Counted from the stretch's first letter, positions 1 to 54,947 are shown. The stretch is DNA of 64,000 bases from an uncultured Methanosarcinales archaeon (GCA_964632045.1 CAZWBB010000001.1:1-64000), one strand, 5' to 3'. Numbers and translations: made by a program. Notes: generated from the sequence alone by a model not told the origin.

Positions 1-156
1 GTGGGGGGAAATAATTCACGTTCACAATATCCCTCTCGGGCGGCTGGTTTCTACTGTAGCAATGACAACTTCCGTGTGGATGGCGATGGCAGCCTCGACG
101 ACCGGGGTCGTTCTCGTGGGGTGATTTATCCGCGAAGCGGCGAAACGAAAAAATGA
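1..156 (+). CDS. 3' fragment of a leader-family paralog (array A); C-terminus ...GRSRGVIYPRSGETKK
   Basis: Nt 1-150 are ~85% identical to 770-905, the C-terminal coding region of the next paralog. Stop TGA at 154-156 overlaps ATG 153 (ATGA). Confidence 0.6.
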   Translation: MGGNNSRSQYPSRAAGFYCSNDNFRVDGDGSLDDRGRSRGVIYPRSGETKK

Positions 157-12763: not shown

Positions 12764-12815
12764 TACAACAAAATTTATAAATACAGCATATACTTCTCCT
12801 GCCAGTTGGGGAAAG

Positions 12816-27821: not shown

Positions 27822-28880
27822 ATGGAACAGGAATATGTAATTAGAGAGAACGAAATCGGAATTGTTTTTGTAGATGGACAGCTGCAGGAAAAACTGAAAC
27901 CAGGGAAGTATAAGTTTGGAACTAACATCCTTGACCGCCAGGAAGCGGTCAGAAAGAAAGTGGAAGAGAAAGAAGAGTTCCAGACCATCACTTACCCTCA
28001 GCTGACAAATGTACCTCTGGGCGTAGCGCTGAATGTACGTAGGCTAGAGAGAAAGCTGAGAAACATCAGATATGGATTCACTGCCAGACAGCTGATAGAG
28101 ATGGCTAAGATCCCTTTCGGGGTCCCAAGAATAGAAAGAAAGGAACTAGGCAGACTCTATGAAGATGAACTTAAGGATGCAAAGATCAGAGCGTACGGTG
28201 ATTACAACAAGCTACCAGTGCAGGTTAGAGAAAAGATAATCCAGCTGGAGATAGAGATTGAAGATGCAAACAAAGTACCCAAGATTGAAGTGAAGACTAT
28301 CGACACCAGACAGCTTACTCTAACAATCACCGGACAGGAGATGCTGACCAGAGATAAGGTTTCAATCAGGATCAACGTGATTGTCCAGTACAAAGTTAAG
28401 GACGCAGTGAAAGCTCTAACCAGCGTTGTAAGCTATGAAGACAGACTTTACCAGCAAGTACAGATGATCATCAGAGATTACGCCTGCGCCAACAGCCTGG
28501 ATCAGCTTTTGACCAACAAGAACACTATCGGTAAGTACATCCAGAAGCAAGTTGAAGGATTGGCTACTGCCATCGGACTGCAGGTGATGGAAGTAGGTCT
28601 GAAGGACATCATCCTGCCGGGAGCAATCCAGGAGATGATGAACAAAGTAGTCGAGGCTGAGAGAGAAGGTAAAGCTAAGCTGGTCAGAGCCAGAGAAGAG
28701 ATGGCAGCTGCAAGGATCAACGCTAACATCGCTAAGATGATGCAGAAAGAAGGATCACTGCAGCTTAAGCAGATGGAGGTACTGACTGAGATCGCTAAGT
28801 CACCAGCCACTACAATCTACTTCGGAGTCGGAGATGAGTTGCTCGAATCAATGAAAAAGAAGAGAGTGACTGGAAAATAG
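27822..28880 (+). CDS. SPFH/band-7 domain protein (flotillin/stomatin-like)
   Basis: SPFH core (KVSIRINVIVQYKVKD...) followed by an Ala/Glu-rich coiled coil (EAEREGKAKLVRAREEMAAARINANIAKM). GGAGGT RBS before ATG. Confidence 0.7.
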   Translation: MEQEYVIRENEIGIVFVDGQLQEKLKPGKYKFGTNILDRQEAVRKKVEEKEEFQTITYPQLTNVPLGVALNVRRLERKLRNIRYGFTARQLIEMAKIPFGVPRIERKELGRLYEDELKDAKIRAYGDYNKLPVQVREKIIQLEIEIEDANKVPKIEVKTIDTRQLTLTITGQEMLTRDKVSIRINVIVQYKVKDAVKALTSVVSYEDRLYQQVQMIIRDYACANSLDQLLTNKNTIGKYIQKQVEGLATAIGLQVMEVGLKDIILPGAIQEMMNKVVEAEREGKAKLVRAREEMAAARINANIAKMMQKEGSLQLKQMEVLTEIAKSPATTIYFGVGDELLESMKKKRVTGK

Positions 28881-31247: not shown

Positions 31248-32102
31248 ATGCTGTTTGAACTGGTGATGATGGCTTTGGCTATGGCTACTTTGGTAATAGC
31301 TTCTTTTACCGACCTCAAAACTAGAGAAGTCCCTGACTGGCTGAATTACGGACTTATTTTCGCTGCACTAGGCATCCGGTTTATTTATTCATTTGACCTG
31401 GGTTGGCAGATTATCCTAAGTGGCCTACTTGGATTCGTGGCCTGTTTTGTCTTGGCTTGCCTCTTCTATTACACACATCAATGGGGAGGAGGCGACAGCA
31501 AACTGCTTATGGGGATGGGTGCTGTTATCGGAATTACTTATCCTTTGAATAACAGCAGCTTTCTTTTATTGTGGTTTTTCCTAGCTTTGCTACTTTTAGG
31601 AGCATTTTTTGGAGTGATGTGGATGGGCGTACTGGCCATGAAACGGAAGGAACAATTCATGCAATCGTTCAAGAACAACCTGGGTGAATATCGAGGTGTG
31701 CATATTGGAGCAGGTGCGCTTTCACTGAGTTTTGCTATGATCAGTTTTGGCTTTATGCCCCTGTGGCCCATGGCAGTGCTACCGATCGCCTTTTTCTACC
31801 TTTTTACTTTCGTGACTGCCGTGGAAAGGAGCTGTTTCATCTCTGCAATCGATCCGATGAAACTTACTGCTGGCGACTGGCTGGCGGAAGACGTTTCTAT
31901 TGAAGGAAAGACGGTAGTTGCTAAGAAGACACTGGAAATGACAGAGGTAGAGAAGCTGAAACATCTGAAAAGGCAGGGCAAATTATCTTCAGTAGTGGTT
32001 AAGGAAGGTATCCCTTTCGTCCCTGCTTTTCTGCTGGCATACGTCTTCATCGTTATTGGTGGAGAGATGTTTAGTTGGGTCTGGGGTGTTGTTTTTGGGT
32101 AA
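31248..32102 (+). CDS. Type IV prepilin/preflagellin peptidase (A24 family, PibD/FlaK-like) with C-terminal extension
   Basis: FTDLKTREVPD catalytic Asp motif and HQWGGGDSKLL second Asp motif. Multiple TM helices. Confidence 0.75.
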   Translation: MLFELVMMALAMATLVIASFTDLKTREVPDWLNYGLIFAALGIRFIYSFDLGWQIILSGLLGFVACFVLACLFYYTHQWGGGDSKLLMGMGAVIGITYPLNNSSFLLLWFFLALLLLGAFFGVMWMGVLAMKRKEQFMQSFKNNLGEYRGVHIGAGALSLSFAMISFGFMPLWPMAVLPIAFFYLFTFVTAVERSCFISAIDPMKLTAGDWLAEDVSIEGKTVVAKKTLEMTEVEKLKHLKRQGKLSSVVVKEGIPFVPAFLLAYVFIVIGGEMFSWVWGVVFG

Positions 32103-32158
32103 CATTTTTAAATGATAGAAATTTAACTAATACTTTACAATATAAAAGAGGTGTCAAA

Positions 32159-32710
32159 ATGAATAAGAAAGCATCATTAAACCTTTCTATACAAGCGATA
32201 GTGATTGTAGTTATCGCTTTTGTAGTATTAGGATTAGGATTAGGTTTTGTACGTGGAGTCTTTGATGATATTGGAGGTCAGACAGATGAAATATTCAGTT
32301 CGGTATCATCTGATATCAAAGGACAAATCGCCAAAAGTAATGAACCTCTCTATTTTCCAAAAGAGAAGATGAATGTCGAAGCAGGAGAGGAAAAAGTGAG
32401 TGGCGTTGGTGTTAAGAACACGGGGGATGTCCCTCTGCAAATGCAGGTTGTCTTTGAGGTACGTGTTGGAAGTGATTTTGTTCCTTTCATCTCAGGAGAA
32501 GTCGGAACTTTTGGTGAAGGTGATTCGGAGTTTACTGCAGGAATCTTTTGGGACGACTCGATACAGCGGTTTGGTCCTACTGAAGGAAGAGCTATTCCGA
32601 TTACACTAACCGCTCCAAGCAAATTCGGCAACTATCTGTACAAAGTGAAAGTTATGAAAGAGGATGGAAGTGATTTCGCTCAGAAGACTTTCTTTGTCAG
32701 AACATCATAG
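32159..32710 (+). CDS. Pilin-like protein with class III (type IV pilin) signal peptide
   Basis: MNKKA|SLNLSIQAIVIVVIAFVVLGLGLG: basic N-terminus, then a hydrophobic helix. GAGGTG RBS 8 nt upstream. Adjacent to the prepilin peptidase. Confidence 0.6.
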   Translation: MNKKASLNLSIQAIVIVVIAFVVLGLGLGFVRGVFDDIGGQTDEIFSSVSSDIKGQIAKSNEPLYFPKEKMNVEAGEEKVSGVGVKNTGDVPLQMQVVFEVRVGSDFVPFISGEVGTFGEGDSEFTAGIFWDDSIQRFGPTEGRAIPITLTAPSKFGNYLYKVKVMKEDGSDFAQKTFFVRTS

Positions 32711-32720
32711 AGGTGATAGA

Positions 32721-32951
32721 ATGAAAAGATCAAGTTCAAAAAAACGGATGACCGAAGAGCAAGAGTTTCAGATAATGAAATTAGTGTTAGATAAGTTTCT
32801 CTGGTTAGGATTTATCGTCATGGGCTGGGGGATGTTTACTTCGATCAAGGATGGAACGGTCCTTCCTGGATTATGGTACATGATCGGAGGAGCTGTTCTA
32901 CTGGTGCTGTTTGCTGTGATTATCGTGAAAGAGTATGAGATATTCAAGTAA
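32721..32951 (+). CDS. Small membrane protein (76 aa)
   Basis: AGGTGA RBS then ATG 32721. Two predicted TM helices. The track ORF starts earlier at 32664. Confidence 0.45.
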   Translation: MKRSSSKKRMTEEQEFQIMKLVLDKFLWLGFIVMGWGMFTSIKDGTVLPGLWYMIGGAVLLVLFAVIIVKEYEIFK

Positions 32952-32962
32952 TCATTTTTTTC

Positions 32963-33391
32963 TTATTCTATTGTTCTGATGGGGTAGGAGTTCATACTCA
33001 GATACTTATTCAACACTCCCTCTACGATATCAATCGCCTGGTTAGTAATCTCTCTTTTCTGCCCAGCAGTATAACCAGCTTCCGGGAACGGTTCAAATTT
33101 TAGGACCCAGTTAAACTCCAGTTCCCCGCCATGAGGCACCACAAAGTAGCGTTTGTGCAGATTGACCAAGAAATCAGTCCAGTGAGGAGAGGTAGCTGAC
33201 AATATTTGAGATGCAAGTTTTTCGAATTCCTCCTCTTTCTCTTTTGGTACTTCAAAGATTATGTGAGCATACTTCTCTGACTGATCTACTTCCAAATCTT
33301 CAGAATGACCCTCACAACTGGAAGAGGTCTCTATATACGGCACCTTATTGAGCAACTCTACAAGATTCTTTATCCCTGGTTCGATTTCCAC
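32963..33391 (-). CDS. Hypothetical protein
   Basis: 142-aa ORF. No motif. Confidence 0.45.
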   Translation of the reverse strand: MEIEPGIKNLVELLNKVPYIETSSSCEGHSEDLEVDQSEKYAHIIFEVPKEKEEEFEKLASQILSATSPHWTDFLVNLHKRYFVVPHGGELEFNWVLKFEPFPEAGYTAGQKREITNQAIDIVEGVLNKYLSMNSYPIRTIE

Positions 33392-33586
33392 AAAACATAC
33401 ATAATCATTGACTATTTAAACTTTGAGAAAGAAACAACTCTATAGAATTGCTTACTTCGTCATTCTAATGACCCCGTATTGCCGTGGCTGCTCGGCTTAC
33501 TTTTAAGACGAGCCTCACGGACGCCACATATTGGCAATGACAGCAATTCTACAGAGCCGAAAGAAACTTACTTTACAATAGTCACT

Positions 33587-33599
33587 AAAATATATAAAG
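33587..33599 (+). promoter_or_regulatory. TATA box (AAAATATATAAAG) for the leaderless pilin-like gene at 33621
   Basis: 22-30 nt upstream of ATG 33621. Confidence 0.45.
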
Positions 33600-33620
33600 A
33601 TTTCCCCATTTCAACGACTG

Positions 33621-34172
33621 ATGGTTGATAAAAAAGCAGCGATCGGACTTTCCATAAATACACTTGTAGTCGTCATCATCTCTCTGGTCATCCTTTCCAG
33701 CGGCATCACTCTGCTGTATAAATTCATAGGGGGAGCTACTGACATACAAGAAGGACTCGACCAAAGGACTGCCGACCAGCTGGACCGTCTCCTTGTCGAT
33801 CAAGGCAAACAAGTTGCTTTGCCCTTGCACAGGGAGACCATAGACAGAGGAGAGGACCATATTTTTGGCATTGGTATCCTTAATATTGGTGGAGGCGAAG
33901 AGTTCACCATCAAGGTGACTCTTTCTAGAAATGTTGAAGAAAACGGTGAAATGGGCGCCCTATCGACTAATGACGTCTATGACTGGCTTCTATTTGATCC
34001 TGGCCCACACACTATCAGAGAGAATGAGCATCGCAAGGAAGGTATCCAGGTGATCGTTCCTAAGGATGCTCTCAAGGGGCAGTATATCTTCAACGCTCGC
34101 GTGTATAGGGAGGAAAGTGGAGAAGAAGTGCAGTACGGCAACACGCAGAAGTTTACTGTTATTGTAGTTTGA
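33621..34172 (+). CDS. Pilin-like protein with class III signal peptide (paralog of 32159..32710)
   Basis: MVDKKA|AIGLSINTLVVVIISLVIL is a near-parallel N-terminus to the other pilin-like gene. Confidence 0.6.
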   Translation: MVDKKAAIGLSINTLVVVIISLVILSSGITLLYKFIGGATDIQEGLDQRTADQLDRLLVDQGKQVALPLHRETIDRGEDHIFGIGILNIGGGEEFTIKVTLSRNVEENGEMGALSTNDVYDWLLFDPGPHTIRENEHRKEGIQVIVPKDALKGQYIFNARVYREESGEEVQYGNTQKFTVIVV

Positions 34173-34532
34173 TTACTCGGACCAGATGATCTTCATCCTC
34201 TTGCTGTAAAGAGGGAAACACAGTTGAGGATCTTTTGCAGCAAGTTTGGTTAGGAAAAGTATCATCCTGTTCTTTAGTCTTTTGTCCATCAGGATTCCAC
34301 CATAGATTGAAGCAAGAGGAATTGGCCTCAGGGCCTGTACTTCAGCCATCCTACCAGCCAGGCCACCTGTAGTGTACTCTATACTTATTCCTGCTGCCTG
34401 GCAAGCAGCCTTCTCTCTTTCGTGGATATTACTACCTCTGAACACAAAGAATCCGCTTTCTTTCACAAGTTCCGGATCGATGATAAAAGCGACAGCGTCA
34501 CCCCAAAAATCCACGTTGTTTGGATCAATCAC
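34173..34532 (-). CDS. Hypothetical protein
   Basis: 119-aa ORF. TATA (AGCTATAAATTC) about 120 nt upstream on the minus strand. Confidence 0.4.
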   Translation of the reverse strand: MIDPNNVDFWGDAVAFIIDPELVKESGFFVFRGSNIHEREKAACQAAGISIEYTTGGLAGRMAEVQALRPIPLASIYGGILMDKRLKNRMILFLTKLAAKDPQLCFPLYSKRMKIIWSE

Positions 34533-34699
34533 AATATCAAGTGATACAACATCCGGAAAATAAGACCCCCGGTGTGTTCCCAGGTCGACTCTGCGAGGCG
34601 GTTGCAGACCATTTTTTACAAAACGGGCTAAAGTAGATGGATGCCAGAATTTATAGCTTGTTCATAGGATAAGGATTCTGTGGCAGATAATAAATGTTA

Positions 34700-36739
34700 C
34701 TATCTAGGAAGACAAGTGTTACCTGGACAGATGGTGTTATCTGAATCCAATTTGCATTCATACCCAAGTCTGCAATCATTATCAGAATCGCAACCGATGA
34801 TGCAATATAGTGATCTATGATTACCATTGACTACCTGACAACAATGAGCACCAAAATCTTCACAACTATCATTGACGTGACCCGGGCAACCGGATGATAC
34901 ACACATCCCCCCTGGCCATTCAGAGATACAATGACCATCAATAAAATCATCACCTACAGAGTAATTTCTACAATCTCTTAATCCAATACACTCATCTCCT
35001 AACAGGCAATTAGGAAAACAATCAGGCCTGTTAGCTACACATGCTCCATCTACACATTGTTGGTCTTCACCACACTCATTCAATCTTTCTTCCCTATTAC
35101 CACAACTGTCCTGCCAATATACATCTCCATCGTGACATGTGGTGTTGGTATGCGACGCGCATTCAGATTCCTCCTCCACACATGCTCCATTTTGACAAAC
35201 CCTATCATCACCACACCACATTTCTTCATCCAGCCAGTTTCCGCAGGAGTCCCTTGACCATACGTCGTTATTCCTACATACATTTGAGGTTCTTGGCATA
35301 CAAACATCATGATAATCGTTGCATGTGGCTGTCTCATCACAATCAGCATCAGAGTTACAACGGGAATCAGAAACACAAACCCAATGATCAGAATTTCCAG
35401 ATGAAAGACAAAGACCCCAGTCTCTACAATCCCAATTTCCTTCACAAGGGTCACAGTAGCCAGCATCACCAAAACACGAACCTTCCTCACAAATACTGTG
35501 CCTTCCACATTCCTCTACTAATCGGCGTAGATTACCACAACTATCTTGATGCCATACATTGCCTTCGTGACATACCCTTTGCAGGTGCCGGCAAGGATCT
35601 GATTGCGTACATTCCCCCTCCCGGCAGTAACCTAGTTCACAGGATTCAATAAATTCTTCTATACGTCCACAGCTGTCTTTCCAATGTACATTCCCATCAT
35701 GACAGGTCCTATCGACGTGTGATGAGCACTGTGGGTCTCCTTCGATACAGCGTCCATCATTACAATTATGCCCATCGGTGCAGGGTGTTATGATGCTCCA
35801 TTCAAAGCAGGCATCATCATCCCAATTTCCACAACTTTTCCAGCCATTATCAAAGCACTCATTTTTTCCTTCAACACTGCATTCGTCCTCGCAGGTTTCA
35901 TCGCAACCATTTTGCTCGGTCAGATCCAAACCCATAAGAGTAGATGTAGGCGGAAATCCATGTTCCATCGGTCGGAAACTTCGGACCCGGGCCGTCTGGT
36001 CATCACGCATCTCTTCCTTTATCCTATGGGCTAAATAATCAGCCATCAAGCTGGAATATCCATCCATGCCAGTGGTTTTCTTAACCATAGCTGCACCAAA
36101 ATCAATATGGGTCTCCAACCATGCTCTATCTCTGCAACCATTATCATCCCAACCATTCCAACTAGCAAAACTCTCAGCCGATGCTTGATTTCTCTCTTTC
36201 TCTTTGCTATTGTATTCCACTTGCTGAAGCGGCATTTTTGTCAAACGATAGTGATGTCGGCTGTGGTGAGCAGCAATTTCCAGTTGGGGCGCGTAATCAG
36301 GATGATCTAAAAGGAATGCCTCGTAACCATCTCCATTGAAATATAGAACATTAACATCAGGTATGGCGTTAGCAAATTGGCTCTTCACCTCGACAACTAC
36401 TTCTTCCTCATCATCCTGGAAATATGCTTTTCCTTCCCTATCAGTTTTTCCGGAGTAAACAGGAATCCCTGCAACTGATTTTGTAATTATAGAATCAGGG
36501 CTAACGCCAACACATTCTCCTTCCTGACAGATGGTCTCTCCTATACAGTCTGAGTTATTGCTGCATTGACCAGTTTGATCCATGGGGATACATACAGAAT
36601 AATAACAAACCTCACCTTGAGGACAGTCTAAGTCAAATTCGCAGGAGTCATCCATTATTTTACATCCACTAACATAGGAGGAGATTGTATACAAAGATAG
36701 CAATCCGACAATTCCTTTTGAAAGTATATTCATCCCCAT
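34700..36739 (-). CDS. Large secreted cysteine-rich repeat protein
   Basis: N-terminal signal peptide (MGMNILSKGIVGLLSLYTISSYVSG). Six or more ~40-aa modules of the form C..G.V.W.DSCGN......C.....C..G.C. Central non-repeat region. High Cys content throughout. Confidence 0.7.
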   Translation of the reverse strand: MGMNILSKGIVGLLSLYTISSYVSGCKIMDDSCEFDLDCPQGEVCYYSVCIPMDQTGQCSNNSDCIGETICQEGECVGVSPDSIITKSVAGIPVYSGKTDREGKAYFQDDEEEVVVEVKSQFANAIPDVNVLYFNGDGYEAFLLDHPDYAPQLEIAAHHSRHHYRLTKMPLQQVEYNSKEKERNQASAESFASWNGWDDNGCRDRAWLETHIDFGAAMVKKTTGMDGYSSLMADYLAHRIKEEMRDDQTARVRSFRPMEHGFPPTSTLMGLDLTEQNGCDETCEDECSVEGKNECFDNGWKSCGNWDDDACFEWSIITPCTDGHNCNDGRCIEGDPQCSSHVDRTCHDGNVHWKDSCGRIEEFIESCELGYCREGECTQSDPCRHLQRVCHEGNVWHQDSCGNLRRLVEECGRHSICEEGSCFGDAGYCDPCEGNWDCRDWGLCLSSGNSDHWVCVSDSRCNSDADCDETATCNDYHDVCMPRTSNVCRNNDVWSRDSCGNWLDEEMWCGDDRVCQNGACVEEESECASHTNTTCHDGDVYWQDSCGNREERLNECGEDQQCVDGACVANRPDCFPNCLLGDECIGLRDCRNYSVGDDFIDGHCISEWPGGMCVSSGCPGHVNDSCEDFGAHCCQVVNGNHRSLYCIIGCDSDNDCRLGYECKLDSDNTICPGNTCLPR

Positions 36740-37792: not shown

Positions 37793-38029
37793 TCATTTCT
37801 TCACCTTATACTTAACGTTGATGACATCCTTTGGTTTCTCTTTTTTAACTTTGTTGAGCATTTTGAAGAGGTAACTCAGAACCAGGATGATTATCGCTAT
37901 CGGTAGAAGGAATAGAAGTAGGTGGAATACCAGGACCAATATTACGGCGACGACTAGGATAGCAAAAAGAGCGATGATCCATGCTTTGAGTCCTCTTACT
38001 GTGTAGAGCATGAGTTGAAGAATATCCAA
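37793..38029 (-). CDS. Small membrane protein
   Basis: 78 aa, two hydrophobic helices, Lys-rich tail. Confidence 0.45.
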   Translation of the reverse strand: MDILQLMLYTVRGLKAWIIALFAILVVAVILVLVFHLLLFLLPIAIIILVLSYLFKMLNKVKKEKPKDVINVKYKVKK

Positions 38030-38986: not shown

Positions 38987-40054
38987 TCACTTTTTGGGTT
39001 CCTGTCCATCGGAAGGAGCAACTTTCGGAGCAGTAGGTTTTTCTTCAACCTTCCTAGCTTCTTCTTTTGGCTTCTTCGTTCCTATTTCTCCATCAACCAT
39101 CCCTTCCTCCAACTCAAGGGCTTTTGCTTTACTTCTCCTATATTCCCGCTTCCCTTTTGCCTTCTTAGATGGTTCGCCGCCTTGCAGTATTCCGCTTAAC
39201 AAAGGATTGCCCGTTGAAATTATCAAGTTGGGTTTAGATTCCGCAAGAACTTCATACGTCCGCAAAGTCTCCCAGAACTTATAGAACTCAGGGTCCTGAC
39301 TGAACACTTCATTGTAGTACTTGGCAACCTCCCCTTCAGCCTCTCCCAGAATCTCCTCAACCTGCCTCTGCCCATCAGAGACATATAATTGCACTTTGGC
39401 TTCCATCTGTCCCAGGATCCTCTTTCTTGCCGCCTCTCCTTCCGCTCTGGTAAAAGCAGCCTGCTTCCTTACCTCAGCGATCATCCCTTTGTGGATAGCT
39501 CCTCTGCTTTCACTTGGGATATCGGTCCTCTTGATCCTTATATCTACTATTTCAATTCCATACTTAGCCATGGCCTCATTTCCTCCTTCCACAGCTTTTT
39601 GTCGGATCTCCTGACGCTTGGTATGCTGATTCTGTTCAAAAGTGTGGTTAGACATCTCAGCCCAAACCCTGGCAAAGACATTCTTATCCAGTATAGTCTG
39701 AGCCCTCTCTTCATGCTTGACCTGCGGAATGTACTTAAAAGGATCTTCTACTCTCCACTTAGCAAATCTGTCCGATTTCATGAACTTATCATCTTTAGTA
39801 GGTATCTGCTCTGCCCTGTCCTCATATTCACGAAGCCTATTGTCTTCCCTTTGTACTTCAGTTACAACCCAGGCAAAGGGGATGTACCAATTTTTGATCA
39901 GATGGGGCCCAGGTGATTTTTTAACATCAACCAAAGCATTCAACTGTCTCTCCGCCCCAATCTCTATCTTATGCAGCTCATATACTGAAGGAGCATAAGC
40001 GATTGCCAAACACCCCAGGGCAACTCCTGCTCCGATCAACTTTGTAATGCTCAT
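38987..40054 (-). CDS. SPFH/band-7 protein, HflC-like
   Basis: N-terminal TM helix, SPFH domain, then a long charged coiled coil. ATGA-coupled to the upstream HflK-like gene. Confidence 0.65.
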   Translation of the reverse strand: MSITKLIGAGVALGCLAIAYAPSVYELHKIEIGAERQLNALVDVKKSPGPHLIKNWYIPFAWVVTEVQREDNRLREYEDRAEQIPTKDDKFMKSDRFAKWRVEDPFKYIPQVKHEERAQTILDKNVFARVWAEMSNHTFEQNQHTKRQEIRQKAVEGGNEAMAKYGIEIVDIRIKRTDIPSESRGAIHKGMIAEVRKQAAFTRAEGEAARKRILGQMEAKVQLYVSDGQRQVEEILGEAEGEVAKYYNEVFSQDPEFYKFWETLRTYEVLAESKPNLIISTGNPLLSGILQGGEPSKKAKGKREYRRSKAKALELEEGMVDGEIGTKKPKEEARKVEEKPTAPKVAPSDGQEPKK

Positions 40055-41097
40055 TTTTCTTTTCCATGGATGAGGTGCTGCATCAATCCGCCGCCCTCTC
40101 CGATGTCCTTGTCGATGACTGTAACATTCGCTTTCAATAGTCCCCGTACAGTTCTCTGATGCAACCTGAAGCGATGCAGATCCAGGTTTCCTTTCCCGTA
40201 CTGGGCATAGGCTCGCTTAAAACGTTCTACCTCTCCTCGAGCTTCATTTTTCATCAAGTCTGCACGTCCTCTTGCTGTTTGAATCATCATGTCTCTCTGA
40301 CCCTTAGCCTCTTCGACTTTTGTTGCTTTCACAGCCAGAGCTTCCTCCTGATATCTCTTTGCATCCAGTTTGGCATCCTGTAGATCGTGATAGGCATCTT
40401 CTACTTCCTTTGTAGGCAGTGTTACCGGTTGCAGCAGAAGAGAGTTGATCGTGATACCTACTCCATAACTATCCAGTATTTCCTGAGCAAGTATGGCCGC
40501 TTCACGCCAGATAAGTTCCTTACCAGTCTTCAATACTTGAGTATATTCCTTTCCGGCAATTACTTCCCGCAGAGCAGATTCAGCAACATCGGCGACTGTC
40601 TTATGAGGATTTCTTACATTGAACAGAAAGGCGCTGGGATCACTCTTCTTGTATTCCACGCTGTACATGACATGAAGTTCCCCTTCATCCCCCGTAACCA
40701 TCAATGATTCTTTGCTAAAATCTCCTTCTTCGTACTCTGTTTGCACCCCTGACTTTTTTGTCCGGAAACCTCTTTCCAGGCGGAAGACCTTATCCACGTT
40801 TACATCATAACCAACTTCCTGAGGATACCTACAATGGAAACCTGCTCCCTGAACACGTTCCCATAATCCTCCCATCCCCAGGAGGACTTTCTTGTGCCCT
40901 TGTCTTATCTCATAGCAGACCCGCTCATCAAGGTAGACCGTATCAACCTGATTGTTGTCAATCTTGTATTCCTTAAGAACTTCCGGCTTCATCAGATTGT
41001 GTACGCCAAACCAGACACCAATCCCTACAGCAGCTGCCCCGACAGGAATACCTACATACTTCCCTAATGCTTTGCCAAGATTTGATAACCGACCCAT
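40051..41097 (-). CDS. SPFH/band-7 protein, HflK-like
   Basis: N-terminal TM helix (YVGIPVGAAAVGIGVWFGV), SPFH core and coiled coil. Paired with 38987..40054. Confidence 0.65.
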   Translation of the reverse strand: MGRLSNLGKALGKYVGIPVGAAAVGIGVWFGVHNLMKPEVLKEYKIDNNQVDTVYLDERVCYEIRQGHKKVLLGMGGLWERVQGAGFHCRYPQEVGYDVNVDKVFRLERGFRTKKSGVQTEYEEGDFSKESLMVTGDEGELHVMYSVEYKKSDPSAFLFNVRNPHKTVADVAESALREVIAGKEYTQVLKTGKELIWREAAILAQEILDSYGVGITINSLLLQPVTLPTKEVEDAYHDLQDAKLDAKRYQEEALAVKATKVEEAKGQRDMMIQTARGRADLMKNEARGEVERFKRAYAQYGKGNLDLHRFRLHQRTVRGLLKANVTVIDKDIGEGGGLMQHLIHGKEK

Positions 41098-41216
41098 TTT
41101 ACCCCAAAATTGGATTTAGATATCGCTGCTAGTATATAAGTTTTATGGTGCAGTACTACTCCCAAATAGCTACGCACGAAAACTTTATAAACCTCGGTGT
41201 TTGTCACCACAATTGT

Positions 41217-42893
41217 ATGGCAGAAATCGGGGGAAGCAGTATGTGGGACATAGTAAAAGAAGAACTTGACGGTTTAAATTATGAACTGCTCAGAGAACTG
41301 TCTGACGGCAGATCTTCAAATTCGAAAGTGTGGCTGGCCCACCGCCTTAATGGTGATGCAGATCTTGAAGAGATTGCGGTGAAAGTCTCGTCCTGCGTAC
41401 TTTTTGGCAGTTGGGATTTTGATGATCCACAGAAGATGGACGAGAAATCAGAGAGGGAATTAGAGATCTATGAAAAACTTCCTCCACATCCAAATATTGT
41501 TTCTTTCAAAGACTTCCACAGGATCGCCATCGGAGATTCGGTGTCTATTCCCGTGGACATCCTGGCTATGGAATACGTGGATTCTCCGAACCTGCTCAAC
41601 CGCATCAGGAAGAAAAGGAAACTCAGCGAGGAAGAGGCCAAGAAATTGCTGGAAGGCTCTCTATCCGGATTGGCTCATGTTCATAATGGGGTGGAGGGAC
41701 ATCAGATACTGCATAGAGACATCCGTCCATCCAACATCTTATTCAATGGAGATGTCAAGTTGTTTGACTTCAATTTCTCAAAGATCGGTGACGCGACCAG
41801 CGCTTCCCGTCTAGTTGAAAATCCTTATTATCCAGTCGATGCGGTCGGTAAGCAGACGCAGAGCCAGGATCTGGTCGCTTTGGCCAATAGAGTCATCTGC
41901 GCAGGTTATGGTTTGGAGATCGAGGAAGTAAGAGACAAGCAGGGGAAGACTGGATTGGATCCGATCGACGTTGACGGTCTCAATTTTGGACAAAAGGTGA
42001 AGAGCATCCTGATGAAATTGAGCCACGACAACCCGGCTTTGAGATATCAGACGGCCGAACAGGCTCTGCAAGATCTGCGCAGCATGGATGCTCTAGCCGT
42101 TATTGACTTCGACAATAAGTTATCGACTGTTGAAAGGAGCCCACAGATGCAGGAACTGCTGACTAAATTGAAGGATAAAGATACACTGTTTGATTACAAT
42201 GTTCCTGTCGTGATGAGAAACAATTCCGATGATGATGCTCTGCTGGAACACTTAGAAAAGATCTATTCCCAGGAAAGGTTCATAGTAGAGGGAGATGAAG
42301 CTGTGAAGCAGCATATCAAAAAGTGTGACAGGGTAATAAAAAAGGACTTAGGGACTGTAATTAAGAACAGAATAAGTAAAGGGGCTCAAGGGATAGTACT
42401 TGACCCTCATCACAATGATACACAAGCAAGAGTTGAGTTCCACAGCGGAATTGTCAAAGGTACCAAAGTCTGGCATATAAACCATAAATGTATGGATGTA
42501 ACGGGCAAAAGGCGTAAGTGGCTGGGGGACAAAGCCTATGATGACGAAGTGAGAGCAGATAAGTTTCCCGGAGGACTTGCCCACAATCATTTTGTTGAAT
42601 ATACGGGAGATGAAATTACTGAGTATAGTTTCTACGTGGAAGATAGCTCGGAAGGGATCGTGGCACGCATAAATAAACAAGATGAACTTCCCTTGCGCAT
42701 CGTCTGGGAAAACCGACCAGGACTGATCCAGGATCTTGACTCCTCTTCTCGCAATCACGGTTTGATAGATATTGGAATAAGGTCCATGTACTCAACGGTC
42801 AACCTTGTCAAACCAAACCCCGTCAACTTCAAACAACTTTACAAAGAATGCTTCCCAGATACTTCTGACGAAAATTCTGATTCAGAAGAATGA
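41217..42893 (+). CDS. Ser/Thr protein kinase-like protein with a large C-terminal domain
   Basis: HRDIRPSNIL catalytic loop, DFNFS, and N-terminal lysine (IAVKV). TATA AACTTTATAAACC 26-34 nt upstream of ATG 41217. The track ORF begins at 41145. Confidence 0.65.
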   Translation: MAEIGGSSMWDIVKEELDGLNYELLRELSDGRSSNSKVWLAHRLNGDADLEEIAVKVSSCVLFGSWDFDDPQKMDEKSERELEIYEKLPPHPNIVSFKDFHRIAIGDSVSIPVDILAMEYVDSPNLLNRIRKKRKLSEEEAKKLLEGSLSGLAHVHNGVEGHQILHRDIRPSNILFNGDVKLFDFNFSKIGDATSASRLVENPYYPVDAVGKQTQSQDLVALANRVICAGYGLEIEEVRDKQGKTGLDPIDVDGLNFGQKVKSILMKLSHDNPALRYQTAEQALQDLRSMDALAVIDFDNKLSTVERSPQMQELLTKLKDKDTLFDYNVPVVMRNNSDDDALLEHLEKIYSQERFIVEGDEAVKQHIKKCDRVIKKDLGTVIKNRISKGAQGIVLDPHHNDTQARVEFHSGIVKGTKVWHINHKCMDVTGKRRKWLGDKAYDDEVRADKFPGGLAHNHFVEYTGDEITEYSFYVEDSSEGIVARINKQDELPLRIVWENRPGLIQDLDSSSRNHGLIDIGIRSMYSTVNLVKPNPVNFKQLYKECFPDTSDENSDSEE

Positions 42894-44111: not shown

Positions 44112-44392
44112 TTTTAGGGGCACACCCGCGGTCGAACCAACCAAGCCTCGTTGGCTTAATCCCGAAAGCTTCTCGAGCTTGCTACCCTTTGAACATGAAA
44201 CTTAAAAGTTAAGGCTGCTCCATTCCTGGCCTGACCTGATTCCCAGTAAGCACATCCCAAAGGACAAACCGTCAGCAAAGACGATCGGGACCAACAAAAC
44301 AAAATCAGCCCTTCTTTGGGCTTCGGCTCCGTGTGAGGTCCGTTCACGGTAACAGCGCAGGACCAGCGCGCCAGCCTAGCTATCCCTACTTC
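44112..44392 (-). ncRNA. Signal recognition particle 7S RNA (SRP RNA)
   Basis: Minus-strand reading AUCAGGUCAGGCCAGGAAUGGAGCAGCC (plus-strand 44213-44240). It matches the universally conserved helix-8 motif CAGGUCAGGUCCGGAAGGAAGCAGCC. Alu-like GGUCC/GGACC loops near the 5' end (44340-44370). GC island. TTTAAAAAAAAC TATA on the minus strand at ~44412-44425. Confidence 0.7.
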
Positions 44393-50072: not shown

Positions 50073-51839
50073 TTATGCTATTCCATAGGTCTTAAACAGT
50101 CTGAGCATCTCATCCGGCAGTCGGTGTAATTCATCCCTGCCCAGCAGAGTGTAATGCTTAGGTCCGATGTGTTTTGTCAGCTCTTTTGCATAACCGTCGA
50201 ACTCCTTGCCGATAACGATGACAAAGGGAAACACTTTGTTGTCGTACAGTTCTTTGAGGACTTCAGGAGCCCCCTTATCGGTCGATTCCCCGTCAGTAAT
50301 GATGGTGATCCCCCGAGGTCGTTCGCCTTGTCTTTCCAACACATGGCCGACCGCTTTTGAACTGGCAGCCAGACGAGTTCCTGCAACATCACTTTTCCTA
50401 CATACAGAGATGATCTTGTTGGCCACTTGAGGATTGTAGGTTTCAGGGAAGTCTTTGATCCTATAAAGGTTACCGCTGAAAGCAAAGAGGCCGAATGGAT
50501 AGTCAGTAACTCCTAACGCTTCCCCCTGGATAAGTAATCCTGCTTTTATCTCATTGATGATATTGTAATGATCCAGATCTGTAGATGGACTGATGTCAGC
50601 CAGGACTGCCCAGGCCGGTCTGTGCTTAAAGCGGCTTTTGGAGACGAAGTGGCGGCCGTTCCTGCTGATGCTGGTCACTTCTCTCTCCAGATCGGTCTGC
50701 AAAAATTCTTCATATTCTAAGTCTTGACCGGAAAAATCCAGGCGTGAAGAACGATGTGTCTGTTTCAGGCGTCGGAAAATACTTTTCATGGAGCCGATGG
50801 CGTAGGCATACTTGTCCCGCAGCTCTTTTTCTTTACGAATGACCCAGTCGGAGTAATCTGGATTCACTTTGACGATGGAGATGTCGGCATCCTCGGATGC
50901 TTCTGTATAGAGACTTTCCCTATCTTTGTCATGCTTAGATGGTTTGGGCTTAGTCTTTTTCCCTTTTGGGTCCGGCTTTTCCTCCTTACCTTTGCCTTTC
51001 TTGAGCCGTTTGGGTCTTTTCTCCTTTTTGTCACGTCCTTCTCTGGGTTTGACTTCCCCCCCATAACCCTGCTGCGGGCTGCCAGGAGTCTTGCTGTGGT
51101 TGCCTTTTCCCTGCTGTTGGGGGAGACGTTTTATCTTCTGCTTGATGTCAAAATTCTCTTTGAATATCTGGTAGATCTTATCGACGGCTTCTTTGTCTTC
51201 ATAGATGGAATCGGCAGAATGACACAGTTCTACACATTCTTCCAGTATCTGCTGATGTTCTTCAGGGACAGGTTCAACTGTGCAGCCCAGCAGAGCCTGC
51301 TGCAGGAATTGTTCTCTGAAAGCGTCCAGCTCAGACATTTTTTTTATGCTTGGCCGGAAATATTTTATGGCATCGTGATGAACTTCCTTGTCATACTTGG
51401 CCAATCCAGGCAACTGCTCACAACGCTGCGCATCGATCCGTCTGTCTTTGACGATGTTATCTATGAATCCGGCCAGGGCAGGATTCTCGGTGAGGTCTGC
51501 ATGGTTCCTCTGCAGGTAGACTCCGACCACACCTTCTCCTTGATTCCTAATAGAATGGATCTCATCTCCGAAATATTCTTCATATTCCCTGATATGGTCA
51601 GCTTCATGAGCAGTGGAGTTGGCTATGTTCATCTCATTATCTCTTTTTTTCTTGCAGAGCTTCTCTCTTGCTGGCAGGAAGATCTTCGTTCCGTCAGTAG
51701 CAGGACAGCCGTTATCACCTTCGATCATCGAACCGCCCTGAATCTCGATGGGATGTTTTTGAGAGGCGCCTTTACCGATACGAAAATCTACCATCCTTTC
51801 CAGTTTTCCAAGCACTTCTGATGTTTTTACTGTGGTCAT
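50073..51839 (-). CDS. HExxH putative metallopeptidase N-domain, Lys-rich linker and vWA domain (DUF2201-like architecture)
   Basis: HEADH (STAHEADHIREYEEY). MIDAS DxSxS (AVLADISPSTD) with downstream T and ITDGEST motifs. About 70-aa K/E/P-rich low-complexity linker. ATGA overlap with 51836. Confidence 0.75.
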   Translation of the reverse strand: MTTVKTSEVLGKLERMVDFRIGKGASQKHPIEIQGGSMIEGDNGCPATDGTKIFLPAREKLCKKKRDNEMNIANSTAHEADHIREYEEYFGDEIHSIRNQGEGVVGVYLQRNHADLTENPALAGFIDNIVKDRRIDAQRCEQLPGLAKYDKEVHHDAIKYFRPSIKKMSELDAFREQFLQQALLGCTVEPVPEEHQQILEECVELCHSADSIYEDKEAVDKIYQIFKENFDIKQKIKRLPQQQGKGNHSKTPGSPQQGYGGEVKPREGRDKKEKRPKRLKKGKGKEEKPDPKGKKTKPKPSKHDKDRESLYTEASEDADISIVKVNPDYSDWVIRKEKELRDKYAYAIGSMKSIFRRLKQTHRSSRLDFSGQDLEYEEFLQTDLEREVTSISRNGRHFVSKSRFKHRPAWAVLADISPSTDLDHYNIINEIKAGLLIQGEALGVTDYPFGLFAFSGNLYRIKDFPETYNPQVANKIISVCRKSDVAGTRLAASSKAVGHVLERQGERPRGITIITDGESTDKGAPEVLKELYDNKVFPFVIVIGKEFDGYAKELTKHIGPKHYTLLGRDELHRLPDEMLRLFKTYGIA

Positions 51840-52870
51840 TTTATATCTGTTTCTAGTGTGTTCTTTATCTCCGGTATATCAACCTTCCATGGATCGATAA
51901 TCTTTACATTTTTAGGTTTGACTTCTGGCTTAGGTTTCTTTTTCTTTGGTGGCTTCATGTATGGTCTCAGGGTACTTCTGCCGGTGGGGAAAACATAGGG
52001 GTAGACTAGCGATGCTGCTAACCTTACAGGGTAGACTAAAGGATGAATTCCGTCCAGAAGAAGAAATCCTGCCACGGGGATAAGTGCCGCATTGGCTATG
52101 TCTGCTTCTGGGGAGTATCCTTTTCCTGCTTTGTCAAGAATGTCCTCGCCCCGCAGTTTTCGTGAAGCATATCCAAACAATAAGGGAAGGATTCCTCCCA
52201 GGAGTATTCCTGCTCCCCAGGGAATCCTGTCTTCCCAGGGAAAATCGTCAGAAATTCTTTTTATATCAAGTGTGTCCCTTCTTTTGTAGAGGCCGCTCTT
52301 GAAGCGTTTAATATCTTCGGGCGGTCTGAAAGTACCATATAGGTCCCAGATATTTCCATTTAAGTCCAGTCTTAATTGTTTTGTGATGCCCGCGCCATGA
52401 TGCAGAAATCTGTAGTGTGTCTCACGGACCCACTCTTCTTTTGCTGCAAGATGCGTCTGCATCGCTTTGAGATCATTTCCGGCCACACTTCTAACAAATT
52501 CAAAATATTCCCGCTGTTCTGGAGTGTGGACAAGACTGTTCTTTTGAGTCTCTGAGGTCTTCTGGCGGATCTCTTTATCGGTCCTGCTTAGGACGGATTC
52601 TAAAGCAGTGATCTCATGGGTGTTCAGTTCACGATCAGCGCTGAAAGCATTGTATAGATCGCTGTAGACAAGATATTCTTTTTTTGAGTCGTCGAAAGTG
52701 GGCTGCTCTGGAGTAAGTTTTTCCGGGAGTGAGATGCCAGCTTTGGCGATAGTCTCCTCTACTGTCGGTTCCAGTTTTCTCTCAGCAGCAAGCATGAAGC
52801 CGCTGCCCACCAGCAATCCACCAGCTAGAACAAGTGGAGTACTTTTCCTAAGCATGTATCTGTAGTTCAT
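51836..52870 (-). CDS. C-tail-family paralog, secreted subtype (signal peptide; C-term IIDPWKVDIPEIKNTLE)
   Basis: N-terminal MNYRYMLRKSTPLVLAGGLLVGSGFMLA signal. GxxxG-rich hydrophobic segment (GAGILLGGILPLLFGYASRKLRG). Conserved C-terminal motif. Confidence 0.75.
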   Translation of the reverse strand: MNYRYMLRKSTPLVLAGGLLVGSGFMLAAERKLEPTVEETIAKAGISLPEKLTPEQPTFDDSKKEYLVYSDLYNAFSADRELNTHEITALESVLSRTDKEIRQKTSETQKNSLVHTPEQREYFEFVRSVAGNDLKAMQTHLAAKEEWVRETHYRFLHHGAGITKQLRLDLNGNIWDLYGTFRPPEDIKRFKSGLYKRRDTLDIKRISDDFPWEDRIPWGAGILLGGILPLLFGYASRKLRGEDILDKAGKGYSPEADIANAALIPVAGFLLLDGIHPLVYPVRLAASLVYPYVFPTGRSTLRPYMKPPKKKKPKPEVKPKNVKIIDPWKVDIPEIKNTLETDIK

Positions 52871-54932: not shown

Positions 54933-54947
54933 CTTTTGCCTACCTCA

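What the first reader, a model, noticed from the sequence alone, without database searches (positions are those of the whole stretch)
31248..36739. Pilus-like locus: A24 prepilin peptidase, two paralogous class-III-signal pilin-like genes, and a 679-aa secreted Cys-rich DSCGN-repeat protein
PibD/FlaK-like peptidase (DxxxxEVPD, GGGDSKL). Two substrates with parallel N-termini (M.KKA|S/A.LSIQ/N..V.VVI..V.L). A large signal-peptide protein built from ~40-aa Cys modules (C.....W.DSCGN.......CG....C..G.C) that I cannot assign to a known repeat family. It could be a pilus-tip adhesin or a surface protein.
Basis: partly seen in the sequence, partly recalled or inferred. Interest (0 to 1): 0.55.

Follow-up and report, generated by a model that had tools for sequence, protein, structure and literature searches.

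The report
DPANN pilin cassette with variable lipoprotein
This is a gene cassette conserved across Woesearchaeota-type (DPANN) archaea, made of a prepilin peptidase, two pilin-like proteins and a tiny membrane protein, beside a fast-evolving, cysteine-packed, probably lipid-anchored surface protein that is likely an adhesin and is not itself a pilin.

Summary
The window is archaeal, and the relatives are Woesearchaeota/Nanoarchaeota (DPANN).

- **Peptidase (31248-32102).** It is an A24 aspartic peptidase, and both catalytic Asp align with those of FlaK.
- **Pilin-like genes (32159-32710 and 33621-34172).** They are paralogs in an unannotated family of at least 508 proteins. Each has a very short KK-[A/G] leader, a roughly 27-residue hydrophobic helix and an Ig-like domain.
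- **Missed gene (32721-32951).** This 76-aa two-helix membrane protein is the best-conserved gene of the locus. Relatives were found in 468 species genomes.
- **Conserved order.** In 80 related loci the order is peptidase, pilin-1, small protein, [slot], pilin-2.
- **The slot.** It is occupied in 36 of 65 loci, almost always by antisense genes for lipobox-signal, Cys-rich proteins. 18 of the 80 loci carry a relative of the window's 679-aa protein.
- **The 679-aa protein.** It has a VSGC lipobox and no class III signal. It continues with a β-sandwich, a poorly modelled HNSxH region, one 8-Cys "CGNxDxDxCxEW" module and four 6-Cys "DSCGN" modules. Neither module type is in Pfam or NCBIfam, yet both are widespread.

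No assembly ATPase or platform gene lies in the window or within 10 kb of the cassette in any related locus. My verdict is a conserved pilin cassette with a hypervariable surface-lipoprotein slot. The "pilus-tip adhesin" reading is unproven.

The parts
31248..32102 (+). A24 (prepilin/class III signal) aspartic peptidase, 284 aa, at least 5 hydrophobic segments
   Evidence: Pfam PF01478 E=2.4e-13, 50.9 bits against a cutoff of 26.5. D22 and D83 (GGGD) align with the two Asp of the conserved FlaK motifs in 3S0X. The C-terminus is weakly like EppA and Arc_PepC_II. The gene is conserved upstream of pilin-1 in 58 of 80 related loci.
32159..32710 (+). Pilin-like protein 1 (183 aa): MNKKA|SLNLSIQ leader, about 27-aa hydrophobic helix, Ig/CARDB-like beta-sandwich
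32721..32951 (+).
   Evidence: It is 66-79% identical across L001-L006. Relatives occur in 468 species genomes, labelled Woesearchaeota, Nanoarchaeota or Nanoarchaeia, with some labelled 'uncultured Methanosarcinales'. There is no Pfam or NCBIfam match.
32963..33391 (-). 142-aa ORF occupying the variable slot between the small gene and pilin-2, with no signal peptide and no homolog in related loci
   Evidence: Whether it is a real gene is uncertain.
33621..34172 (+). Pilin-like protein 2 (183 aa): MVDKKA|AIGLSIN leader, same architecture, 'YGNTQKF' C-terminal type
   Evidence: It lies downstream of the small gene in 65 of 80 loci. It has its own TATA-like box about 30 nt upstream.
34173..34532 (-). 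119-aa orphan ORF between pilin-2 and the Cys-rich gene
   Evidence: No family match and no homolog in related loci.
34700..36739 (-). 679-aa Cys-rich modular surface protein (67 Cys), predicted lipoprotein
   Evidence: A search of 1.84 billion cluster representatives found 802 relatives, but no close homolog apart from the protein itself.
36662..36739 (-). Signal peptide ending in the lipobox V-S-G-C26 (residues 1-26)
   Evidence: Read from the sequence. The lipobox rule is satisfied. The same type of signal is enriched in slot genes of related loci, 21 of 38 against 19 of 415, p=2.5e-15.
35906..36502 (-). Family-defining N-domain (residues 80-278): transthyretin/CarboxypepD_reg-like beta-sandwich (80-170), then a poorly modelled helical part. 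Invariant H158, S160, C202 and P257. Asn (HNS) is nearly invariant, but His in the window protein. The following His (H162) is usual, and the HG Gly is nearly invariant.
   Evidence: Alignment A3. AF2 gives pLDDT about 95 for residues 80-170 and below 50 for 170-280. Foldseek gives only weak hits to CnaB/transthyretin-like folds. There is no Pfam or PDB family.
35738..35905 (-). Type-A 8-Cys module 'CxDEC..G...C..nGw..CGNxDxDxCxEW....C..G..C..G.C' (residues 279-334)
   Evidence: 399 copies in 95 of the top 150 representatives, with up to 14 matched stretches per protein, including a Myxococcota protein. AF2 pLDDT is about 95. It is not in Pfam.
35468..35737 (-). Type-B 'DSCGN' 6-Cys modules B1 and B2 (residues 335-424)
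   Evidence: Self-HMM E about 1e-25. 204 copies in 57 of the top 150 representatives.
35030..35308 (-). Type-B 'DSCGN' modules B3 and B4 (residues 478-570)

Best explanation
The locus is one copy of a cassette conserved throughout Woesearchaeota-like DPANN archaea. The gene order is A24 class-III signal peptidase, pilin-like protein 1, a 76-aa two-helix membrane protein, a variable slot, then pilin-like protein 2.

Inferred mechanism:
1. The peptidase removes the 5-6-residue MxxKK[A/G] leader of the two pilin-like proteins.
2. Their long N-terminal hydrophobic helices then hold them in the membrane, or let them be assembled into a type-IV-like fibre by an ATPase and platform encoded elsewhere. 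Their Ig-like domains face outward.
3. The 679-aa protein is not a pilin. It is exported through Sec and probably lipid-anchored at Cys26 of a VSGC lipobox.
4. It displays a beta-sandwich and an HNSxH domain, followed by a stalk of small disulfide-knotted modules.

It belongs to a hypervariable class of lipobox, Cys-rich surface proteins that occupy or flank the variable slot of this cassette. It most likely serves as an adhesin or host-recognition protein of an episymbiotic cell.

- **Shown:** gene identities, catalytic residues, family-wide N-terminal motifs, synteny, slot variability, lipobox enrichment and module families.
- **Inferred:** cleavage, lipidation, filament formation, adhesion, and any physical link between the lipoprotein and the pilin-like proteins.
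For: - **Organism.** An archaeal SRP RNA is in the window. Relatives are labelled Woesearchaeota or Nanoarchaeota.
- **Peptidase.** PF01478 scores above its cutoff. D22 and D83 align with the two Asp of the conserved FlaK motifs.
- **Pilin family.** Position -1 is always A or G (51% and 49%). K/R is at -2 in 98% and at -3 in 89%. A hydrophobic stretch of about 27 aa follows, in 111 of 120 members. The AF2 model shows a long N-terminal helix and a beta-sandwich.
- **Synteny in 80 species genomes.** Pilin-1 is adjacent to the small gene in 80 of 80. The peptidase is upstream in 58 of 80. Pilin-2 is downstream in 65.
- **Slot.** It is empty in 29 of 65 loci and filled in 36 of 65, almost always by antisense genes. 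Median Cys content is 4.5% against 0.96% in background ORFs. Lipobox-type signals occur in 21 of 38 slot ORFs against 19 of 415 background ORFs, p=2.5e-15.
- **Relatives of the 679-aa protein.** N-domain relatives lie in or beside the cassette in 18 of 80 genome loci, and in L002, L004, L005 and L006.
- **Module position.** Almost every ORF with A or B modules within 10 kb of the cassette lies in the slot. The one exception, in L086, sits just after pilin-2, as in the window.
- **Divergence.** Among genome pairs whose small proteins are at least 70% identical, median identity is 74% for the small protein, 47% for pilin-1, 46% for the peptidase and 28% for the lipoprotein.
- **Closest relative.** L001 keeps the cassette but lacks the Cys-rich gene.
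Against: - No FlaI/PilB-type ATPase or FlaJ/PilC platform is in the window or within 10 kb of the cassette in 80 loci.
- The pilin-like proteins match no curated pilin or class-III-signal model. They fail the FlaFind pattern as I remember it, because of G/E at +3; only 11 of 120 match.
- Fold searches give only generic Ig-like hits, with no solved archaeal pilin among them.
- In the window the Cys-rich gene lies after pilin-2, not in the canonical slot.
- One relative (L007) sits away from any cassette.
- Archaeal lipobox processing has not been shown for DPANN.
- An adhesin function is inferred only from architecture and variability.
Confidence: 0.6

Rival explanations
1. Pilus-tip adhesin. 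The Cys-rich protein is a non-pilin adhesin, like bacterial PilY1/PilC1, that is carried on a fibre built from the two pilin-like proteins.
For: The genetic linkage to the pilin cassette is tight and recurrent. PilY1-type adhesins also use Sec signals and not class III signals (my own knowledge). A 2026 preprint reports PilY-like adhesins in some archaeal TFF clusters.
Against: A lipobox predicts membrane anchoring, not tip display. The slot is empty in 29 of 65 genomes, so the cassette works without this protein. There is no similarity to PilY1 or to any solved protein. No assembly genes are linked.
Confidence: 0.12
2. The 'pilins' are not filament subunits. They are class-III-processed or signal-anchored surface proteins that stay in the membrane, as Sulfolobus bindosome substrate-binding proteins or pseudopilins do. 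Together with the 76-aa membrane protein they form a small envelope complex that may present or organise the variable lipoprotein.
For: No ATPase or platform is linked in 80 loci. The tiny membrane protein is invariably co-encoded and is more conserved than the pilins. The family matches no known pilin model. The C-terminal domain is a generic Ig/CARDB fold.
Against: The dedicated A24 peptidase next door and the invariant A/G at -1 with KK before it are the hallmarks of type IV pilin-like substrates. Pilin and peptidase genes are often unlinked from assembly genes in archaea (my own knowledge). DPANN genomes do encode TFF systems.
Confidence: 0.2
3. The adjacency is coincidental. The region between the small gene and pilin-2 (and beyond) is simply a recombination hot spot where any accessory gene lands, and the Cys-rich protein has no functional tie to the cassette.
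For: The slot also holds unrelated, non-secreted genes, such as the 142-aa ORF in the window, the genes in L011 and L036, and a 419-aa cytoplasmic-looking protein after pilin-2 in L001. The window gene has its own promoter-like region and the opposite orientation. L007 shows a family member elsewhere.
Against: Lipobox proteins are strongly enriched in the slot, with a Fisher odds ratio of about 26 and p=2.5e-15. Within each 20-kb locus, A and B modules occur only in the slot or just after pilin-2.
Confidence: 0.12

Closest known systems
Archaeal class III signal (prepilin) peptidases: FlaK (PDB 3S0X), PibD, EppA; MEROPS/Pfam family A24 (PF01478)
   Same: It matches the A24 domain above the Pfam cutoff. 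Both Asp motifs align with FlaK (D22, and GGGD with D83). It is a polytopic membrane protein. Its C-terminal part is weakly like EppA and Arc_PepC_II. It is encoded next to its presumed substrates.
   Different: It falls far below the NCBIfam equivalog cutoffs for FlaK (42 against 330 bits) and EppA (21 against 450 bits). It is therefore an ortholog of neither. It represents a distinct Woesearchaeota lineage whose substrates are uncharacterised.
Archaeal type IV pilins and pilin-like proteins (M. maripaludis EpdA-E, Haloferax PilA1-6, Sulfolobus Aap/Ups pilins; Pfam Class_IIIsignal PF04021 and Pilin_N PF07790)
   Same: It has a very short basic leader, G/A at -1, a long hydrophobic N-terminal helix and then a beta-sandwich. 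There are two paralogs beside the peptidase.
   Different: There is no match to any curated pilin N-terminal model. The motif after the site is [AS][IL][GE]LS[IMV][NEQ], not QxSxE. There is no linked ATPase or platform. A universally co-encoded 76-aa membrane protein has no counterpart in described TFF systems.
Bacterial and haloarchaeal lipobox lipoproteins; modular disulfide-rich surface proteins of CPR, DPANN and Myxococcota
   Same: The n- and h-regions are followed by [LVI][ASTVI][GAS]C. The mature part is extracellular-type, modular and Cys-rich. The same small modules are reused in many architectures.
   Different: Lipid modification is untested in DPANN. The two module types and the HNSxH N-domain are in no curated family. 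The genes are positionally tied to a pilin cassette.
PilY1/PilC-type non-pilin pilus adhesins
   Same: It is a large, Sec-exported, non-pilin protein encoded with pilin genes.
   Different: There is no sequence or fold similarity. It has a lipobox anchor. It is dispensable in about half of the cassettes.

Membership tests
Peptidase family A24 (prepilin / class III signal peptidase) | Match to the PF01478 profile above the curated cutoff | tested here: met
   50.9 bits against a cutoff of 26.5, E=2.4e-13, residues 10-122.
Peptidase family A24 (prepilin / class III signal peptidase) | Two catalytic aspartates, the second in a GxGD motif | tested here: met
   D22 (FTDLK) and D83 (GGGD) align with the ASVQD and GGGD motifs of FlaK 3S0X. 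That these are the catalytic FlaK D18 and D79 is from my own knowledge.
Peptidase family A24 (prepilin / class III signal peptidase) | Polytopic membrane protein | tested here: met
   At least five hydrophobic segments by Kyte-Doolittle hydropathy. This is a crude method.
FlaK or EppA orthologs (NCBIfam equivalogs NF040695, NF053826) | Score above the equivalog cutoff | tested here: not met
   42.2 against 330 bits, and 21.3 against 450 bits.
Archaeal type IV pilin-like proteins (class III signal peptide) | Short charged leader, G/A at -1, then about 20 or more hydrophobic residues at the extreme N-terminus | tested here: met
   MNKKA|SLNLSIQAIVIVVIAFVVLGLGLGFV and MVDKKA|AIGLSINTLVVVIISLVILSSGITLL. 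The family logo shows A/G at -1 in 100% and K/R at -2 in 98%.
Archaeal type IV pilin-like proteins (class III signal peptide) | Match to curated pilin or class-III-signal models (Pfam PF04021, PF07790; NCBIfam archaeal flagellin/pilin N-terminal models) | tested here: not met
   No such hit for either protein at E<=0.1 (Pfam) or E<=1 (NCBIfam), nor for any of 72 family members at E<=0.01.
Archaeal type IV pilin-like proteins (class III signal peptide) | Positive call by a dedicated predictor (FlaFind/PilFind) | tested here: inconclusive
   The programs are not available here. The FlaFind pattern as I remember it, [KRDE][GA][ALIFQMVED][ILMVTAS]x3, matches only 11 of 120 family members, because +1 is sometimes S and +3 is G/E. 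A remembered pattern is a lead, not a test.
Archaeal type IV pilin-like proteins (class III signal peptide) | N-terminal alpha-helix followed by a globular beta domain | tested here: met
   AF2 gives pLDDT 81.6, helices 7-37 and 41-59, and a beta-sandwich at 70-182 with pLDDT >=90. Fold matches are generic Ig, PapD-like and CARDB.
Archaeal type IV pilin-like proteins (class III signal peptide) | Cleavage by the A24 peptidase, and assembly by a TFF ATPase and platform | not testable with these tools
   There is genetic adjacency to the peptidase only. No ATPase or platform is in the window or in the 80 loci.
Lipobox lipoproteins | Signal peptide ending in [LVI][ASTVI][GAS]C | tested here: met
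   …LYTISSYVSG|C26. The same feature is enriched in slot genes. Lipid attachment itself is not testable here.
Curated Cys-rich repeat families (Pfam/NCBIfam, such as DUF7107, Cu-binding_MopE, Myxococcus Cys-rich repeat) | Profile match above the cutoff | tested here: not met
   The only hit is DUF7107, at 16.2 against 24.6 bits, in the N-terminal knots. There are no NCBIfam hits. Relatives rich in A and B modules also lack hits for those modules.
DGR (diversity-generating retroelement) target proteins | C-terminal CLec/Lcl_C-type variable region with a template repeat nearby | tested here: not met
   The window protein has no Lcl_C domain. There is no TR/VR-like direct repeat in or near the gene. 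Some relatives do end in Lcl_C.

The most novel reading that the evidence does not exclude
The cassette of peptidase, two pilin-like proteins, a 76-aa membrane protein and an antisense hypervariable lipoprotein slot is a previously undescribed, lineage-wide attachment system of Woesearchaeota. The swappable, disulfide-knotted lipoprotein would be the host-specificity determinant. The pilin-like pair and the small protein would form its conserved presentation or assembly scaffold, possibly independent of a classical TFF motor.
Probability: 0.3. Interest if true: 0.7.

Novelty: new variant of a known kind. Interest (0 to 1): 0.5.

Why it matters
Woesearchaeota and other DPANN archaea are mostly uncultured, ultrasmall organisms thought to live attached to host cells. 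How they recognise and hold on to hosts is largely unknown.

A cassette conserved in hundreds of species, pairing conserved pilin-like components with a rapidly diversifying surface-lipoprotein slot, gives a concrete and testable candidate for that interface. It also brings two widespread, uncurated disulfide-rich module families and a new N-domain (HNSxH) into view for annotation.

The components themselves (A24 peptidase, class-III-type proteins, Cys-rich surface proteins) are of known kinds, so this extends existing biology and does not overturn it.

Tried and rejected
- **K-mer homolog search with the 679-aa protein.** It found only the protein itself.
- **Third homolog search, with the N-domain alignment.** It returned nothing, for an unexplained reason.
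- **The search for related loci with that alignment.** I switched to the small-protein alignment.
- **Exact-product lookup of the 679-aa protein.** It is not on record.
- **PDB sequence searches.** The pilin profile gave only spurious hits (serpin, WxL). The Cys protein gave none, and the N-domain gave only low-complexity 'Pizza' hits.
- **Foldseek on the Cys-protein model.** Nothing scored below E=1e-3.
- **AF2 on residues 170-280.** The region was not modelled confidently, so the idea that invariant His, Ser and Cys form an active site remains speculation.
- **DGR target idea.** Rejected for the window gene: no Lcl_C domain and no TR/VR repeat.
- **Shared 11-mer ACTTTACAATA upstream of both pilin genes.** It is significant within the window but not conserved in related loci, so it is not claimed as a regulatory motif.
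- **Downstream thioredoxin, TIM and Band-7 genes.** They are syntenic housekeeping neighbours and not part of the system.
- **T2SSE-type ATPases.** A Walker-A motif scan found only two ABC-like proteins in the related loci and nothing in the window.

Full report
**1. What is in the sequence**

- 31248-32102 (+), 284 aa.
- 32075/32159-32710 (+). The biologically sensible start is the ATG at 32159, preceded by GAGGTG.
- 33621-34172 (+), 183 aa.
- 34700-36739 (-), 679 aa with 67 cysteines.

The window is archaeal. It carries an archaeal SRP RNA at 44117-44386. All named relatives of the locus genes come from Woesearchaeota, Nanoarchaeota or Nanoarchaeia MAGs, which are DPANN.

It lies 10 nt after pilin-1.

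**2. The peptidase**

- Pfam Peptidase_A24 matches residues 10-122 at 50.9 bits, against a cutoff of 26.5.
- Against the PDB, the only hit is FlaK (3S0X). The alignment puts FTD22 and GGGD83 opposite the two conserved Asp motifs of FlaK.
- Hydropathy shows at least five membrane segments.
- The C-terminal 50 residues resemble EppA and Arc_PepC_II only weakly.
- The protein is far below the NCBIfam equivalog cutoffs for FlaK and EppA.

It is therefore a real A24 class-III signal peptidase, of a lineage distinct from the characterised ones.

**3. The two pilin-like proteins**

They are paralogs.
- BLASTP gives E=5e-7 over the first 80 residues.
- Shared motifs continue through the C-terminal domain: G.G..N.G and P..A..G.Y.

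A profile of the pair retrieved 508 proteins of about 180 aa from public data. They fall into two orthologous groups corresponding to the two window genes.

In 111 of 120 family members the N-terminus reads M-x-N-K-K-[A/G] | [A/S]-[I/L]-[G/E]-L-S-[I/M/V]-[N/E/Q]-x-L-V-[V/I]-[I/V]-I-I-S-L-V-I-L.
- Position -1 is A or G in 100% of these members.
- K/R is at -2 in 98%.
- The leader is 5-6 residues, and about 27 mostly hydrophobic residues follow. This is the architecture of a class III (type IV pilin-like) signal and is too long for a Sec h-region.

Evidence against pilin membership:
- No curated pilin or class-III-signal profile matches.
- The FlaFind pattern as I remember it matches only 11 of 120 members, because +3 is G/E.

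My conclusion is that these are class-III-type substrates of the neighbouring peptidase. That they form a filament is an inference.

**4. The 679-aa protein**

| Residues | Feature | Evidence |
|---|---|---|
| 1-26 | Signal peptide ending in the lipobox V-S-G-C26 | |
| 27-79 | Two small 4-Cys knots with sub-threshold similarity to DUF7107 | |
| 80-278 | Family-defining N-domain | |
| 279-334 | One type-A module | |
| 335-424, 478-570 | Four type-B 'DSCGN' modules (6 Cys, about 45 aa) | |
| 425-477, 571-679 | Further Cys-rich segments | |

After the lipobox Cys there are 66 cysteines, an even number. The single internal Cys of the N-domain (C202) can pair with C279 at its end.

*The N-domain.*
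- AF2 models residues 80-170 as a beta-sandwich at pLDDT about 95. The only fold matches are weak ones to CnaB, transthyretin and carboxypeptidase-regulatory folds.
- Residues 170-280 are helical at low confidence.
- Invariant positions are H158, S160, C202 and P257. The Asn of HNS is nearly invariant but is His in the window protein (HHS). The following His (H162) is usual, and the Gly of HG is nearly invariant.

*The type-A module.* Its consensus is CxDEC..G...C..nGw..CGNxDxDxCxEW....C..G..C..G.C. It is modelled at pLDDT about 95.

*Relatives.*
- The k-mer search found only the protein itself.
- Exhaustive phmmer against 1.84 billion cluster representatives found 802 relatives, 238 of them at E<=1e-10. 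They share one or more of the three parts.
- The A module occurs in 95 of the top 150 hits, with up to 14 matched stretches per protein, including a Myxococcota protein.
- The B module occurs in 57 of the top 150 hits, up to 11 times per protein.
- Neither module type, nor the N-domain, is in Pfam or NCBIfam or has a PDB relative.

The repeat is, however, a widespread and uncurated module family and not a one-off.

**5. Context: a conserved cassette with a variable slot**

Contigs carrying close pilin homologs show the same order. It runs peptidase, pilin-1, 73-76-aa protein, variable genes, pilin-2, then TIM, thioredoxin and Band-7.

The small protein is the most conserved member, at 66-79% identity. 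A back-translated pattern scan of one genome per species found relatives in 468 genomes, and 80 loci were retrieved.

HMM searches on their ORFs show:
- pilin-1 directly upstream of the small gene in 80 of 80 loci;
- the peptidase upstream in 58 of 80, many of the rest being cut by contig ends;
- pilin-2 downstream in 65.

The distance from the small gene to pilin-2 is under 300 bp in 29 of 65 loci. In 36 of 65 it is 0.5-9 kb. The inserted genes are almost always on the opposite strand.
- Their median Cys content is 4.5%, against 0.96% for other ORFs of the same loci.
- A signal peptide ending in a lipobox-like Cys occurs in 21 of 38 slot ORFs against 19 of 415 other ORFs (Fisher p=2.5e-15).

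18 of the 80 loci, and also L002, L004, L005 and L006, carry an N-domain relative of the window protein in or beside the cassette. Within all these 20-kb loci, ORFs containing A or B modules occur only in the slot, apart from one in L086 just after pilin-2. That is the window's arrangement.

Divergence is steeply graded. For genome pairs whose small proteins are at least 70% identical, median identity is:

| Protein | Median identity |
|---|---|
| Small protein | 74% |
| Pilin-1 | 47% |
| Peptidase | 46% |
| Lipoprotein | 28%, and only over part of its length |

The closest relative of the window (L001, pilin-1 81% identical) keeps the cassette but has no Cys-rich gene at all. One family member (L007) lies elsewhere, next to giant surface proteins.

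**6. What is absent**

Pfam scans of essentially all large ORFs of the window found no T2SSE/FlaI-type ATPase and no FlaJ/PilC platform. A Walker-A scan (G..G.GK[TS][TS]) of the window and all fetched loci found only two ABC-like proteins.

A 2026 preprint reports TFF systems (system 1, Aap-like and 4A) in DPANN genomes generally. An unlinked machinery is therefore plausible, but it could not be checked for this genome.

There is no DGR-type template/variable repeat near the gene. Some slot proteins elsewhere end in an Lcl_C/DUF1566 domain.

**7. Interpretation**

The best-supported reading has four parts.
- An A24 peptidase processes two class-III-type, Ig-domain surface proteins.
- A universally co-encoded tiny membrane protein of unknown role accompanies them.
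- The 679-aa protein is a Sec-exported, probably lipid-anchored, disulfide-stabilised modular surface protein.
- That protein belongs to a hypervariable class positionally tied to the cassette, which fits an adhesin or host-recognition role in an episymbiont.

The 'pilus-tip adhesin' version is possible but has no specific support, and the lipobox argues for membrane anchoring. The alternative that the pilin-like proteins never form a fibre cannot be excluded. The pure-coincidence reading is disfavoured by the enrichment statistics.

**8. Novelty and score**

The parts are of known kinds. What appears undescribed is:
- the lineage-wide cassette with its 76-aa protein and its antisense hypervariable lipoprotein slot;
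- the two uncurated Cys-module families;
- the HNSxH N-domain.

I did not find this cassette described in the literature I searched, but those searches were limited. I rate it a new variant of a known kind, with interest 0.5.

Noticed in passing
window 153-10688 (+): Eleven tandem paralogous genes of 230-292 aa, interrupted by one unrelated 596-aa gene at 4716-6506. Nearly all begin with the same 23-25 residues, MNILKPLKHGNVLTEEEALKDLE. The first 69 nt are conserved at DNA level at up to 96%, while the bodies are only 25-45% identical in protein. There is no Pfam match. The conserved N-terminal tag on a diversifying family suggests a targeting or packaging signal, or gene conversion.
   Followed up: partly
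window 50073-63702 (-): A second paralog array. Three proteins of about 340 aa have signal peptides (51836-54932). Eight proteins of 240-340 aa (56381-63702) share a conserved C-terminal tail of about 16 aa (a 49-nt DNA repeat, 12 copies). An AAA_5 (MoxR/dynein-like) ATPase lies at 54948-56444, and a 588-aa protein has no match. None of the paralogs hits Pfam.
   Followed up: partly
window 33450-33550 (+): A GC-rich structured element lies in the 229-nt spacer between the 142-aa ORF and the pilin-2 promoter. Its MFE is -29.7 kcal/mol, with z=-3.2 against shuffles on the + strand. It is a single copy in the window and has no Rfam family.
   Followed up: partly
window 32132-32142 and 33570-33580 (+): The 11-mer ACTTTACAATA occurs only twice in 64 kb (expected 0.03), both times just upstream of a pilin-like gene. 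It is not conserved upstream of the orthologs in related loci. There, pilin-1 has a conserved AAAGAGGTG ribosome-binding site and pilin-2 has a TTTATA(A/T)A box.
   Followed up: yes
L004 10857-12373 (-), and proteins P0124 and P0129: Some relatives of the Cys-rich lipoprotein end in an Lcl_C/DUF1566 domain. To my knowledge this is a frequent target of diversity-generating retroelements in DPANN and CPR. No reverse transcriptase or template repeat was looked for in those loci.
   Followed up: no
window 37796-38011 (-): A small (about 72-aa) two-helix membrane ORF next to the TIM gene has an N-terminus reading …RGLKA|WIIALF…. It is conserved in the same position in L001 (4702-4947). Its function is unknown.
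   Followed up: no
window 12753-13793 (+) and 41145-42893 (+): Two eukaryotic-type Ser/Thr protein kinase genes (Pfam Pkinase, E=4.6e-31 and 6.2e-20) sit in this small-genome archaeon. Three SPFH/Band-7 genes cluster at 27822-28880 and 38987-41097.
   Followed up: no
L008-L087 record titles: Many species-representative MAGs that carry this Woesearchaeota-specific cassette are labelled 'uncultured Methanosarcinales archaeon' (binchicken TPA assemblies). These labels are probably taxonomic mislabels.
   Followed up: no
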